This document shows positions 21,001 to 24,000 of a stretch of 64,000 nt of DNA, in pieces; the first letter of the stretch is position 1, and every line of letters starts with the position of its first letter. The stretch lies in NCBI GenBank assembly GCA_965637545.1, contig OZ281494.1, forward strand, positions 16,492,001 to 16,556,000, in the 5' to 3' direction. Position numbers: made by a program. Origin of the DNA: Phallusia mammillata (lineage: Eukaryota).

Positions 21001-24000
21001 AATCGGGAAACAGCCGCAAAAACCTCGCGGTTGAAAATACGCCAATGTCAAAATTTTTACAAAAAAGGACATAATATTGTCAGACGCAGCAGCCGCACCC
21101 TTAAAAAGACTACGTTATAAACAGTTAGGTACATCCCAAGTCTTGAGTTAGGTACATCCCAAGTCTAATGTTTTATACCAACTTTGAATACAACAGGGTA
21201 GATGAATGTAACCCACCTGAACAGACTTCACGCAGTAAAGCGATTATTGTTTTCGAATTAGACAACAAGTTTTGGGTATCGTTTTCCGTTTCTCGGAAAT
21301 ATGTATACAGCTTACTGTTTTTTTCATTGTTTGGATTTCATTCCAGCAAATCATCGTACAAAATGATATTCAATATCATATAGCAATATCAGTTATTGCA
21401 CCTGAGGTTAAAATAATAGTGATAAAAATACATTACAAATATGTCAGCGTTCTATGATCCGCAACATCACAACGGCATTATAACGAAGTTTTACGCTTTC
21501 TTTATCTTTGTACGAGCTTTTATCAACTTTTACGAAACTGTTACTTACGACTGACTCGTGATCGTGACTATGCTCGATTCTGCCTCACAAGCAACAACGC
21601 AACCCTCTGTAATTGTAAAATAAGTGTATTTCATAATCCGTAGCCAGCGGATGCTTGAAGTCCGTGATCGCGGCAGTGTACACTTCTTCATTAGTGTGAC
21701 AAGGTAGTTCACTAGCTGTTAGTAAGTCGACTCGACTTCTTGTGTTAGGTGTTAAAATTTGTTACTTGTTACAAAAGATTTTGTTGTTTTAACTTAAATC
21801 AACTCCGATTTGTGCAAATTGCAAACTTTATTATTAGTGTGTTTTGTTGTTTAAAAACTACTGGTGTTTGTAATTTGTATTAATTTAAAACATGGTTCGG
21901 TATTGTTCCTAAATTTTTGCATAACATGCATTTTACTTTGGTACATGCAATGTATAGTCAACACCAATGTAATCCAAGGTGTTTAATGTTACAGTTTGTT
22001 AACGAATAACATGCAGTATAAGGGTGTTCAATTTCTGCCAGTGCAAGTTTTACATAGATGTTACACGTCCATGCAAACTGCCAGTGGTAATGGGTTGGAA
22101 ACACCTGAAAGATTTCATCCTAAAGCAGCACCCCCAAGCCAGACTGACATTTCAACAATTAAAACTTTTGTTGCACATTGCAAAAACATGATGGTTTTGT
22201 CAGGTGCTGGACTTTCCACTGAGTCAGGTGTACCCGACTATCGATCCAAAGGTGTAGGGTTATATGACCGCATGAATCACAAACCAATGGAACATCATGA
22301 GTTTGTACGAAGCTCTGCTAGTCGAAAAAAGTATTGGGCACGAAATTACATTGGTTGGAAACGTCTTTCATCCCTTAAACCTAATATTGCCCATACAAAA
22401 CTAAGTCAGCTGGAAAAGGATGGGAAAATTAGTTGGCATGTAACACAAAATGTTGATAGTTTGTGTTCAAAAGCAGGTTCCAAAAAACTTACTGAATTAC
22501 ATGGGTGTGTTGAAAGAGTGACCTGTTTAAGCTGCAGAAATATTTCAACACGCAAGGAGCTGCAAAAAAGATTTCAAGAAAATAACAGTACCTGGTCTGC
22601 TAATGTATTGGGTTTTGGACCAGATGCAGATGTTTTTATTAAGGATGAAGATGTCACAAATTTTCATGTGCCAGCTTGTTTAAAATGTGGAGGTGTTTTA
22701 AAACCTGATGTCACATTTTTTGGAGACAATGTACCTGGTCATATTGTAGAATTTGTTTATGACAAGCTGCAAAAAAGTGATGGTTTGTTAGTTGTAGGTT
22801 CATCATTGCAGGTTTGGTCAGGATATAGATTTGTTTCTCGGGCATCACACTGTGGTATTCCAATTGCTATCATTAATATTGGTGCCACAAGAGCTGATGA
22901 CATAACCTCTGTAAAAGTAAATGCTTTATGTACACAAGTTTTAAAACATATTTTGTGACAAGTGTTTTTGTTTTTATCAAGTGCCATGACAAAATCTTAT
23001 GTAGCGTTTAAAATAAAGTTTCAATTTTTTTGCTTTAAACAATGACTTCTGTAACATTGCAGGTAATTGTAGTAGGTCTGTAATGTAAAAGGGTTTGTTA
23101 GTTAGATTTATTTGAATATAACTATCGGAATGGAGGAATCTACACCAGCCAACAACAATAACTGTGTTTCAGTGGAAGTGCCAAAGCTTGAAAACGACAG
23201 TATACCTCAAGTCAAAGTTACACAGGTAAATGTTAACAACTGGATGTCAAGTGGTTTCAGCATGTTTTGTATATTTTATTGGCTATTTGTCATTTTAAAG
23301 GTGACAAAGTTAAGGGGTGAGGAGACAGAGATTGTTGTGAGCAGCGGAGGAGAAGATGAAGAGGTTTGTATGCTTTGTGTTTCATGTGACTTTTTTGATA
23401 AAAAACTTTTAAACCATTGTTTTGGTTGAAAACGAAAGCTCAATAACATAACATCTGTAGATGTTTTTTTAGGGTTGTGTTTTGGTACTTTATGCGCATT
23501 TTTGCTCAATGTATATAATGCCTATTATTAAGTTGACCTTTAAACTTTGAATATTCTTACTAAATTTGTTAATTTTTGATGTTTGGTAACTTAGAATTGT
23601 ATTGCCACAATGATATATAATTTAGTGTATGTTTGTAGTGTTTTTTAACACATTAAATATCAAACCTTACCTGGTATTAAACATGAGTTTTTTACTTTAA
23701 CCAGAGTTGCTATAAAATTGAAAAGTTGTCTAAAATGTAAAGGTTGTTTAGTTGGTAGTTAATTTCATCCCATGAACATGAACATAAAGATGTTAAAATT
23801 GTGTATAATGTTTCAAATAGCTACATGGGCCATTGGCCTATTACATAATTTTTCCCCTGTTATCCAAATGTTTTTTCCAACGTAATTGATAAAATTGCTG
23901 CATTTTTATCAATTTCCCTCATGTATTAGCTCTGTAATATGCCTATGTCGTCAACTGGTAACAAGGCGTACCTCAAAAATTACTAGGGGAAATGACAAAA

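What the first reader, a model, noticed from the sequence alone, without database searches (positions are those of the whole stretch)
21722..23130. SIRT4-LARP6: candidate trans-spliced operon or shared first exon
Seen: the intronless SIRT4 CDS ends at 22958, AATAAA is at 23012, a TTGCAG acceptor is at 23062 and the LARP6 ATG is at 23130, so only 171 bp separate the ORFs and there is no CpG-rich promoter-like stretch between them. A single upstream donor (GTAAGT, 21722) precedes both acceptors (21994 and 23062). Established: ascidian operons are resolved by SL trans-splicing, have almost no intercistronic DNA and are enriched in single-exon genes. Inference: either a dicistronic unit, or SIRT4 sits in LARP6 intron 1 and competes for one leader exon. 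Either model co-regulates a mitochondrial sirtuin with an mRNA-binding translational regulator.
Basis: partly seen in the sequence, partly recalled or inferred. Interest (0 to 1): 0.65.

Follow-up and report, generated by a model that had tools for sequence, protein, structure and literature searches.

The report
Likely SIRT4–LARP6 operon in ascidian
Two unrelated genes of a sea squirt, a one-exon mitochondrial sirtuin (SIRT4) and the RNA-binding protein LARP6, lie head to tail only 171 bases apart and are probably read as one transcript and then separated, which is a common arrangement in sea squirts.

Summary
Gene identities hold. SIRT4 is one uninterrupted 315-codon ORF. LARP6 has 12 GT-AG exons that encode, residue for residue, the public Phallusia mammillata LARP6 protein, starting at ATG 23130.

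The short motifs (AATAAA, TTGCAG, GTAAGT) are at chance density. "Single upstream donor" is overstated. "No CpG-rich promoter" is not diagnostic, because Ciona promoters have no CpG islands.

The dicistronic reading gains indirect support:
- SIRT4 and LARP6 carry consecutive protein accessions on one contig in Clavelina. They share a chromosome in Ciona. In Styela they are on different chromosomes.
- One unbroken CpG-depleted block runs from the SIRT4 5' end through the gap into LARP6. The INTS2/ELL divergent promoter gap in the same window rebounds.

No transcript data could be consulted, so SL trans-splicing at AG 23062 or 23105 is inferred, not shown. Verdict: an ordinary candidate operon, a new member of a known kind. 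Operon about 0.6, own LARP6 promoter about 0.2, shared leader exon about 0.1.

The parts
20715..21994 (.). Divergent intergenic region between a minus-strand membrane-protein gene (ATG 20714) and SIRT4. It is the likeliest site of the promoter serving SIRT4, and LARP6 too under the operon model.
   Evidence: 43 CpG, o/e 1.12. A dense CpG cluster at 21448-21733 ends at the GTAAGT of 21722. The minus-strand ATG was located. Promoter function is inferred, not shown.
21722..21727 (+). GTAAGT, candidate donor of a non-coding leader exon
   Evidence: Position confirmed. By my count it matches MAG|GTRAGT at 6 of 9 positions, so it is absent from the list of sites scoring 7 or more. That list does hold 21704 and 21979 (7 of 9) and 20887 (8 of 9).
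21989..21994 (+). TTACAG acceptor 16 nt upstream of the SIRT4 ATG (cis- or SL trans-splice acceptor)
   Evidence: 11 pyrimidines in the 20 nt scored by the script. A TAA stop at 21984-21986 lies in frame upstream of the ORF.
22011..22958 (+). SIRT4 coding sequence, one exon, 315 codons plus TGA
   Evidence: Pfam SIR2 E 1.1e-47, profile 1-179 of 180. The best named relatives are all SIRT4: Clavelina 59%, Ciona 55%, Styela 51% identity.
23012..23017 (+). AATAAA, candidate poly(A) signal of SIRT4
   Evidence: It lies 54 nt after the stop. Its last base is 45 nt from AG 23062 and 88 nt from AG 23105. The motif occurs at 1.5 per kb on this strand.
23057..23068 (+). TTGCAG|GTAATT: candidate SL acceptor (AG ends at 23062) that is also a strong donor-like site (GT at 23063)
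   Evidence: acceptor; CAG|GTAATT scores 8 of 9 as a donor. 11 pyrimidines in the 20 nt scored.
23104..23122 (+). Second candidate acceptor (AG ends at 23105), followed directly by a 17-nt stretch resembling the Ciona spliced leader
   Evidence: The 10-nt SL core occurs once in the window, here. The stretch is at edit distance 3 from the 16-nt SL printed in Table 1 of PMC1488885. A leader starting at 23106 would hold no upstream ATG.
23130..30455 (+). LARP6 gene, 12 coding exons: 23130-23225, 23301-23363, 24154-24273, 24420-24578, 24982-25095, 25512-25673, 25946-26106, 26521-26651, 26862-26936, 27002-27150, 28850-28943, 30247-30452, then TAA
   Evidence: All 510 residues of P0128 (La-related protein 6, Phallusia mammillata) map exactly. 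All introns are GT-AG and the exon lengths sum to 1530 nt. The La-motif exon matches LARP6 structures at E 1e-16 against 2e-4 for LARP7. The RRM exon gave two PDB hits at E<=1: LARP6 2mtg at 8e-10 and a casein kinase I-like chain at 0.76.
21995..27000 (.). One continuous CpG-depleted block spanning SIRT4, the 171-nt gap and the first 3.9 kb of LARP6
   Evidence: CpG o/e is 0.33 in the SIRT4 exon, 0.65 in the gap (2 CpG only) and 0.30 in LARP6 23130-27000. It is 1.12 upstream and 1.04 in LARP6 27001-30455.

Best explanation
SIRT4 and LARP6 form a dicistronic transcription unit of the ascidian operon type. RNA polymerase II starts in the roughly 1.3-kb divergent region upstream of SIRT4, most likely within the CpG-dense stretch 21448-21721. 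It transcribes through SIRT4 and on into LARP6. SIRT4 mRNA is completed by 3' end formation downstream of AATAAA 23012. LARP6 mRNA gets its capped 5' end by spliced-leader trans-splicing onto an unpaired acceptor in the gap, at AG 23062 or AG 23105.

Shown here: the gene identities, the gene structures, the spacing, the conserved linkage and the CpG pattern. Inferred: co-transcription, SL addition, and which AG is used.
For: 1. Geometry. Both genes are on the same strand, and 171 nt must hold both UTRs. Ciona operons are called operationally as same-strand pairs with less than 100 nt between the mRNAs. In Ciona such tight spacing was found in 9.2% of pairs whose downstream gene is SL-spliced and in under 1.1% of the other pair classes, and 12 of 12 downstream genes were SL-spliced (PMC1488885, section 13).

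2. Upstream gene form. The upstream gene has a single coding exon. Single-exon genes are the 5'-most gene in 790 of 1,310 (60%) Ciona operons, against 15% of non-operon genes (PMC2760879, section 10).

3. Linkage.
- In Clavelina lepadiformis, SIRT4 and LARP6 are CAK8692804.1 and CAK8692805.1 on one 11,517,300-bp contig. In RefSeq they are XP_076818073.1 and XP_076818070.1/071.1 on one 20,771,506-bp contig.
- In Ciona intestinalis both are on the 12,273,785-bp contig.

4. CpG pattern. One CpG-depleted block (o/e about 0.3) runs from about 21800 to 27000 with no rebound between the genes. The INTS2/ELL divergent gap in the same window rebounds to 0.80, and the SIRT4 upstream region is at 1.12. 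CpG o/e tracks methylation in Ciona (PMC4776710, passages).

5. Acceptors. Usable AGs lie in the gap. The pyrimidine counts at 23062 and 23105 (11 and 9 of 20) fall near the range seen for the LARP6 cis acceptors (9-15 of 20; the two scripts score windows offset by one base, and three rows of the control were off register). A leader starting at 23106 is free of upstream ATGs.

6. Start codon. ATG 23130 is the start in an independent public protein record, and the N-terminus is shared by Ciona, Clavelina and Styela LARP6.
Against: - No transcript, SL, CAGE or poly(A) data could be consulted, so the defining features are untested.
- My literature search found nothing describing SL trans-splicing or operons in Phallusia itself. 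One search returned 3 papers, and none is about this by title or abstract start.
- A canonical AATAAA follows SIRT4, which favours efficient termination. In Ciona, 16 of 18 operons lack this signal within 40 nt of the upstream poly(A) site (PMC1488885).
- The 'longer' protein searches found no fused SIRT4+La gene prediction: 0 of 7 hits and 0 of 36. Ciona operons are often mispredicted as fusions. The tool itself calls this weak evidence.
- In Styela clava the two genes lie on contigs of different length (32,746,820 and 21,360,319 bp), so the linkage is not universal.
- About 27% of Ciona genes have a methylated promoter as well as a methylated body (2,252 genes; 71.4% lack promoter methylation; PMC4776710). 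The missing CpG rebound is therefore suggestive only, and 171 nt holds too few CpGs to resolve a small promoter.
Confidence: 0.6

Rival explanations
1. Two independent genes that are simply close together. LARP6 has its own compact, TATA-less or TATA-like promoter inside the SIRT4 3' UTR or the end of its coding sequence. SIRT4 terminates at the AATAAA site, and LARP6 mRNA is either capped directly or SL-spliced from a very short outron.
For: - The canonical AATAAA at 23012 lies 23 nt (after its last base) from a CA at 23040-23041 and is followed by G/T-rich sequence (read). This looks like a conventional terminator.
- Ciona promoters need no CpG island and are mostly TATA-less (PMC4691747), so a promoter could be invisible in sequence.
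- About 27% of Ciona genes have methylated promoters (PMC4776710).
- No fused gene predictions were found.
Against: - In Ciona, same-strand pairs under 100 nt apart with a non-SL downstream gene were under 1.1% of pairs.
- A start inside the gap leaves under 51 nt before AG 23062. That is the lower limit Yokomori et al. set on outron length in their search, taken from a C. elegans trans-splicing study. It would also put upstream ATGs in the leader (23083; 23043 read).
- Conserved adjacency in Clavelina is not needed under this model.
- There is no CpG rebound.
Confidence: 0.2
2. Shared leader exon, or nested gene. One promoter gives a non-coding exon ending at 21721. Its donor is spliced either to 21994 (SIRT4 mRNA, ending at the AATAAA site) or to 23062 (LARP6 mRNA, with the whole SIRT4 exon removed as part of a 1,341-nt intron).
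For: - GTAAGT at 21722 lies exactly at the 3' edge of the CpG-dense cluster 21448-21733, where a first exon would be expected.
- Both acceptors exist.
- The model explains the spacing, the linkage and the CpG block as well as the operon model does.
Against: - By my count the donor matches the consensus at only 6 of 9 positions, and it is one of several donor-like sites upstream.
- In SL-splicing species an acceptor left unpaired is normally taken by the SL (PMC1488885 introduction).
- I found nothing in the texts read that describes this arrangement for ascidian operon-like pairs.
- No transcript evidence.
Confidence: 0.1

Closest known systems
Ciona intestinalis/robusta SL-resolved operons (Satou et al. 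2006, 2008)
   Same: Same-strand, mostly dicistronic pairs of functionally unrelated genes. The 5'-most gene is often single-exon. The downstream gene starts at an AG acceptor close to its ATG. The host is also an ascidian.
   Different: In Ciona the upstream poly(A) site abuts the acceptor AG (median intercistronic distance 1 bp; PMC7986045), and 16 of 18 operons lack AATAAA within 40 nt of it. Here an AATAAA lies 45 nt (AG 23062) or 88 nt (AG 23105) upstream of the candidate acceptors. The mRNA ends are unknown, so a short intercistronic spacer of about 15-80 nt is possible.
Oikopleura dioica operons
   Same: A single SL serves both monocistronic and operon genes. Intercistronic spacers are short, 23-30 nt (quoted in PMC1488885), which would fit cleavage about 20-30 nt after AATAAA followed by AG 23062.
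   Different: Oikopleura upstream cistrons are reported to lack AATAAA (PMC1488885). Oikopleura is a distant tunicate class with a different, 40-nt SL.
Caenorhabditis elegans operons (SL2-type with a spacer of about 100 nt; rare SL1-type with none)
   Same: An AAUAAA-directed 3' end for the upstream gene, followed by a short spacer and a trans-splice acceptor.
   Different: Ascidians have no specialised SL2 (PMC7986045). The phylum is unrelated.
Nested genes or alternative-acceptor loci sharing a non-coding first exon
   Same: One promoter serves two proteins, and an intronless gene lies inside what would be intron 1 of the other.
   Different: This needs a 21721-to-23063 junction, for which there is no evidence. 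The donor is weak.

Membership tests
Ascidian SL-resolved operon (Ciona type) | Neighbouring genes on the same strand | tested here: met
   SIRT4 at 22011-22958 (+) and LARP6 at 23130-30455 (+)
Ascidian SL-resolved operon (Ciona type) | Less than 100 nt between the upstream mRNA 3' end and the downstream mRNA 5' end (operational definition; PMC1488885, PMC2760879) | tested here: inconclusive
   Only the gap between the coding sequences is known: 171 nt, which must contain both UTRs. The mRNA ends are unknown. The criterion is met if the SIRT4 3' UTR plus the LARP6 5' UTR total 72 nt or more.
Ascidian SL-resolved operon (Ciona type) | The downstream mRNA carries the spliced leader at an unpaired acceptor | not testable with these tools
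   No transcript collection was available. Candidate AGs end at 23062 and 23105.
Ascidian SL-resolved operon (Ciona type) | The upstream poly(A) site directly abuts the acceptor AG (no intercistronic DNA) | not testable with these tools
   This needs 3' RACE or poly(A) reads. AATAAA ends 45 nt before AG 23062.
Ascidian SL-resolved operon (Ciona type) | An unresolved dicistronic precursor is detectable | not testable with these tools
   No cDNA or EST data. As a weak proxy, no fused SIRT4+La protein prediction appeared (0 of 7; 0 of 36).
Ascidian SL-resolved operon (Ciona type) | Associated but not defining: the 5'-most gene is single-exon | tested here: met
   The SIRT4 coding sequence is one ORF. 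Whether a non-coding 5' exon exists is unknown.
SIRT4 (class II sirtuin) | A full-length Sir2 catalytic domain, with best reciprocal-style similarity to SIRT4 rather than to other sirtuins | tested here: met
   Pfam SIR2 covers profile 1-179 of 180 at E 1.1e-47. Where the 120 listed best hits carry a family name, it is sirtuin-4. The HG motif and two CxxC pairs are visible in the translation. Their roles in catalysis and zinc binding are recalled, not tested.
LARP6 | A La motif followed by the LARP6-type RRM1 | tested here: met
   Each exon was searched on its own. The La-motif exon matches LARP6 9ngx/2mtf at about E 1e-16, against 1.8e-4 for LARP7. The RRM exon gave two PDB hits at E<=1: LARP6 2mtg at 8e-10 and a casein kinase I-like chain at 0.76. 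All 510 residues equal the named P. mammillata LARP6.
LARP6 | A C-terminal SUZ-C/LSA motif (Pfam PF12901) | tested here: inconclusive
   PF12901 is listed only for three vertebrate hits (P0156, P0160, P0161) and for none of the tunicate LARP6 proteins, P0128 included. The last-exon ORF 30234-30452 had no Pfam hit at E<=0.01. The C-terminal block is nonetheless conserved among the four tunicate proteins printed.
Shared-first-exon / nested gene locus | One 5' exon spliced alternatively to both acceptors | not testable with these tools
   A donor-like GTAAGT exists at 21722 but matches the consensus at only 6 of 9 positions and is not unique.

The most novel reading that the evidence does not exclude
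The 17 nt directly after AG 23105 (23106-23122, ending 7 nt before the LARP6 ATG) are a genomic copy of the ascidian spliced leader and not a chance match. They would be one of two things. One is a relic of a reverse-transcribed SL-LARP6 mRNA that was recombined back into the locus, which would mark 23105 as the ancestral trans-splice site. The other is an encoded mimic that gives un-trans-spliced LARP6 transcripts an SL-like leader. Together with the SIRT4-LARP6 adjacency kept in both Phallusia and Clavelina, this would make the locus an old operon that has recorded its own processing history.
Probability: 0.1. Interest if true: 0.55.

Novelty: new member of a known kind. Interest (0 to 1): 0.3.

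Why it matters
If confirmed, this is one more ascidian operon, a class that holds about a fifth of Ciona genes, so the arrangement itself is not surprising.

The modest added value has two parts. First, it would be a documented operon outside Ciona, in Phallusia, where my search found nothing on SL trans-splicing or operons. Second, this pair seems to have stayed adjacent in an aplousobranch (Clavelina) and on one chromosome in Ciona, while being split in Styela. That makes it a usable case for asking whether operon membership preserves gene order in otherwise fast-rearranging tunicate genomes.

A functional link between a mitochondrial deacylase and an mRNA-binding regulator is not implied. 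Ciona operon partners are usually unrelated and not tightly co-expressed.

Tried and rejected
- Fused gene predictions as a proxy for synteny: none found (0 of 7 with a La domain, 0 of 36 with a SIR2 domain). The tool warns that this is weak evidence.
- Synteny from the "longest_contig" column of the search tables. This first suggested that Clavelina SIRT4 and LARP6 lie on different contigs. One search showed that to be an artefact of two assemblies being mixed in one cluster, so I dropped that reading.
- Retrogene hallmarks around SIRT4: no flanking direct repeats bracket the gene, and no A-run follows the 3' UTR. A retrogene origin is neither supported nor excluded.
- RNA structure in the 171-nt gap: none (z +0.96; 167 of 200 shuffles fold at least as well).
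- Known RNA families: 0 Rfam matches in the whole window, so there is no SL RNA gene or other ncRNA here.
- Ungapped search with the Ciona SL at up to 3 mismatches: one hit only, at 59579 (1.77 expected). It is not followed by GT, so it is not an SL RNA gene. The site at 23106 appears only when indels are allowed.
- CpG island as a promoter test: rejected as a criterion for ascidians and replaced by the domain-level CpG o/e comparison.
- In the donor control, two of my 11 "validated" positions (26939, 28946) were off register and should be ignored. In the acceptor control, three of 11 (26860, 27000, 30245) were likewise off register. The correct exon borders were verified.
- Matsumoto et al. 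2010 (PMC2860165) is not held. My query of PMC3827831 failed on term syntax and I did not repeat it.
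Full report
**What is there**

The window has no N and 37.7% G+C. I do not take it for human. It is ascidian DNA.

Every coordinate in the finding is right:
- GTAAGT at 21722
- TTACAG ending at 21994
- ATG at 22011
- TGA at 22956-22958
- AATAAA at 23012
- TTGCAG ending at 23062
- an AG ending at 23105
- ATG at 23130

The gap between the two ORFs is 171 nt, with GC 0.28 and 2 CpG.

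**Gene identities**

SIRT4:
- The upstream ORF (315 codons) is unbroken.
- It covers the Pfam SIR2 profile 1-179 of 180 at E 1.1e-47.
- Its best named relatives are all sirtuin-4: Clavelina lepadiformis 59%, Ciona intestinalis 55%, Styela clava 51% identity. These come from the 120 best listed of 5,142 proteins at E<=1e-20 among 5,772 candidates.

LARP6:
- The spliced model was searched exon by exon. The joined coding sequence was never assembled or searched.
- The La-motif exon (24420-24578) matches solved LARP6 La motifs at about E 1e-16, against 1.8e-4 for LARP7.
- The exon 25512-25673 gave two PDB hits at E<=1: the LARP6 RRM1 structure 2mtg at 8e-10 and a casein kinase I-like chain at 0.76.
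- A search with the La exon returned a public protein named La-related protein 6 of Phallusia mammillata (P0128, 510 aa) at 100% identity.
- All 510 of its residues map exactly onto window exons.
- The 12 exons are flanked by GT-AG at all 11 introns and sum to 1530 nt, which is 510 codons, followed by TAA.

So the window is P. mammillata or something nearly identical. ATG 23130 is the start codon in an independent record. The N-terminus is also shared by the Ciona, Clavelina and Styela LARP6 proteins.

**Are the motifs more than chance?**

No. Counts on the + strand of the 64-kb window, with my arithmetic:

| Motif | Count on + strand | Chance of at least one |
|---|---|---|
| AATAAA | 95 | about 22% in 171 nt |
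| TTGCAG | 28 | about 7% in 171 nt |
| GTAAGT | 18 | about 30% in the 1,280 nt upstream of SIRT4 |

- By my count the GTAAGT at 21722 matches MAG|GTRAGT at 6 of 9 positions.
- Sites at 20887 (8 of 9), 21704 and 21979 (7 of 9) lie in the same upstream stretch.
- Sites scoring 7 of 9 or better number 146 on this strand.
- "A single upstream donor" is therefore overstated.
- The gap region holds ten AGs, six of them in the last 70 nt.
- The informative facts are the two genes, their common strand and their spacing.

**Surroundings**

- A minus-strand gene for a membrane-like protein starts at ATG 20714, so 20715-21994 is a divergent intergenic region.
- Downstream, LARP6 ends at 30455. It faces INTS2 on the minus strand (31215-34988, with a 1,038-codon single ORF).
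- ELL follows on the plus strand from about 36800, and an EGF/CUB gene lies on the minus strand beyond 52 kb.
- The other measurable gene gaps are about 0.76, 1.3 and 1.8 kb, so 171 nt stands out.
- Rfam finds nothing in the window.

**What the literature establishes for ascidian operons**

Satou et al. 2006 (PMC1488885; passages plus section 13 read):
- Operons are same-strand neighbours with less than 100 nt between the mRNAs.
- Such spacing occurred in 9.2% of pairs with an SL-spliced downstream gene and in under 1.1% of the other classes.
- 12 of 12 downstream genes from the unbiased screen were SL-spliced.
- In the 19 operons whose ends were mapped, the upstream poly(A) site abuts the acceptor AG.
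- 16 of 18 lack AATAAA within 40 nt of that site.
- Operon partners were neither tightly coordinated nor mutually exclusive in expression.

Satou et al. 2008 (PMC2760879; passages plus section 10):
- 1,310 operons hold about one fifth of the genes.
- Single-exon genes make up 38% of operon genes against 15% of non-operon genes.
- They form the 5'-most gene in 790 (60%) of the operons.

Wenzel et al. 2021 (PMC7986045; passages): the median intercistronic distance in Ciona is 1 bp.

Yokomori et al. 2016 (PMC4691747; passages):
- Ciona has no CpG islands.
- Its promoter classes do not differ in CpG content.
- Putative outrons average 438 bp.

The argument from a single-exon upstream gene is sound.

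**New evidence 1: linkage in other tunicates**

- Clavelina lepadiformis: SIRT4 and LARP6 carry consecutive protein accessions (CAK8692804.1, CAK8692805.1) on one 11,517,300-bp contig. In the RefSeq annotation they are XP_076818073.1 and XP_076818070.1/071.1 on one 20,771,506-bp contig. I read consecutive numbering as adjacency in the annotated record. That is an inference from how such accessions are usually issued, and it says nothing about strand or distance.
- Ciona intestinalis: both proteins sit on the 12,273,785-bp contig. Adjacency is unknown.
- Styela clava: they sit on contigs of 32,746,820 and 21,360,319 bp, so they are not linked.

ANISEED's authors note that tunicate genome organisation diverges rapidly (PMC5753386, passage). 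A pair kept together in a phlebobranch and an aplousobranch is therefore worth noting.

**New evidence 2: CpG landscape**

The window is a mosaic of CpG-normal stretches (o/e about 1.0-1.4) and sharply bounded depleted blocks (about 0.1-0.5).

| Region | CpG o/e |
|---|---|
| Divergent region 20715-21994 (43 CpG) | 1.12 |
| SIRT4 exon | 0.33 |
| 171-nt gap (2 CpG) | 0.65 |
| LARP6 23130-27000 | 0.30 |
| LARP6 27001-30455 | 1.04 |
| INTS2 | 0.25 |
| INTS2/ELL divergent gap 34989-36794 | 0.80 |

- The dense CpG cluster at 21448-21733 stops at the 21722 donor.
- The INTS2/ELL gap serves as an internal control. It separates two depleted genes and rebounds to 0.80. No such rebound separates SIRT4 from LARP6.
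- CpG o/e correlates negatively with methylation in Ciona. There, 71.4% of genes lack promoter methylation, but 2,252 genes have both promoter and body methylated (PMC4776710, passages).
- The pattern fits one transcription unit starting near 21450-21720, but it does not prove it.

**Mechanism proposed**

1. Transcription starts upstream of SIRT4.
2. The SIRT4 5' end is made either by cis-splicing (21722 to 21994) or by SL addition at 21994.
3. The SIRT4 3' end forms after AATAAA.
   - A CA lies at 23040-23041, 23 nt after the hexamer, followed by G/T-rich sequence (read).
   - In the Ciona manner, the 3' end could instead form at the acceptor AG itself.
4. Polymerases that read on give LARP6 pre-mRNA, whose 5' end is made by SL trans-splicing at 23062 or 23105.
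   - Use of 23062 leaves a 67-nt leader with one upstream ATG-TAA at 23083.
   - Use of 23105 leaves a 24-nt leader with none.

Every step from co-transcription onward is inference.

**Rivals**

- An independent LARP6 promoter inside the SIRT4 3' end remains possible at about 0.2. Ascidian promoters can be featureless, the AATAAA looks like a real terminator, and no fused gene predictions were seen.
- The shared-leader-exon model, at about 0.1, explains the same facts. It rests on a weak donor and has no precedent in the texts I read.

**Not in print?**

- A full-text search for LARP6 with Ciona returned 0 papers.
- SIRT4 with Ciona returned 4, none about operons by title or abstract start.
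- Phallusia mammillata with "spliced leader" returned 3, none on this topic by listing.
- No eukaryotic genome or transcript collection was open. Intergenic distances in other tunicates and any transcript evidence therefore stayed unchecked.

**Verdict**

The operon reading is reasonable and is somewhat strengthened by the linkage and CpG evidence. This is an ordinary candidate member of a well-known class, and its defining features (SL addition, abutting or near-abutting mRNA ends, a dicistronic precursor) are untested.

Noticed in passing
window 23106-23122: The 17 nt directly after AG 23105 resemble the 16-nt Ciona spliced leader printed in Table 1 of PMC1488885 (edit distance 3). Its 10-nt core TATTTGAATA occurs only here in the window: 0.51 expected, and 39 of 100 shuffles have at least one. 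With indels allowed, about 6 loci on the + strand and up to 4 on the - strand reach this similarity, and one other (34538) also follows an AG. This is probably chance in AT-rich DNA, but the position, 7 nt before the LARP6 ATG, is striking. The Phallusia SL is unknown to me.
   Followed up: partly
GT 23063 to AG 23105 would form a 43-nt GT-AG mini-intron whose removal deletes the only upstream ATG of the leader.
   Followed up: partly
window 27000 and 36500-38000: CpG-depleted blocks do not follow whole genes. The LARP6 block stops abruptly near 27000, in mid-gene (o/e 0.30 before, 1.04 after). In ELL only about 36500-38000 is depleted, although the gene runs to at least 48264.
   Followed up: partly
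window 31875-34988 (-): INTS2 is encoded almost entirely by one 1,038-codon ORF (Pfam INTS2 profile 2-931 of 1050), followed by two short exons at 31528-31881 and 31215-31574. This is a second case of an intron-poor gene next to this locus.
   Followed up: no
window 59578-59594 (+): A second spliced-leader-like stretch: edit distance 2 with indels, or 3 mismatches ungapped. It is not followed by GT, so it is not an SL RNA gene.
   Followed up: partly
window 45449-46075 (+): A local G+C and CpG peak (45501-46000: GC 0.53, 51 CpG, o/e 1.45) coincides with a 209-codon ORF that has no Pfam match. It lies inside the span of ELL.
   Followed up: no
window 23226-23300: LARP6 intron 1 (75 nt) is in frame and free of stops (ORF 23106-23426), so retaining it would insert 25 residues without truncating the protein.
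   Followed up: no
window 10484-10882 (-): An ORF with a THAP domain (E 1.1e-6) lies beside a stretch with no CpG at all (10001-10500). It may be a domesticated or decayed transposase.
   Followed up: no
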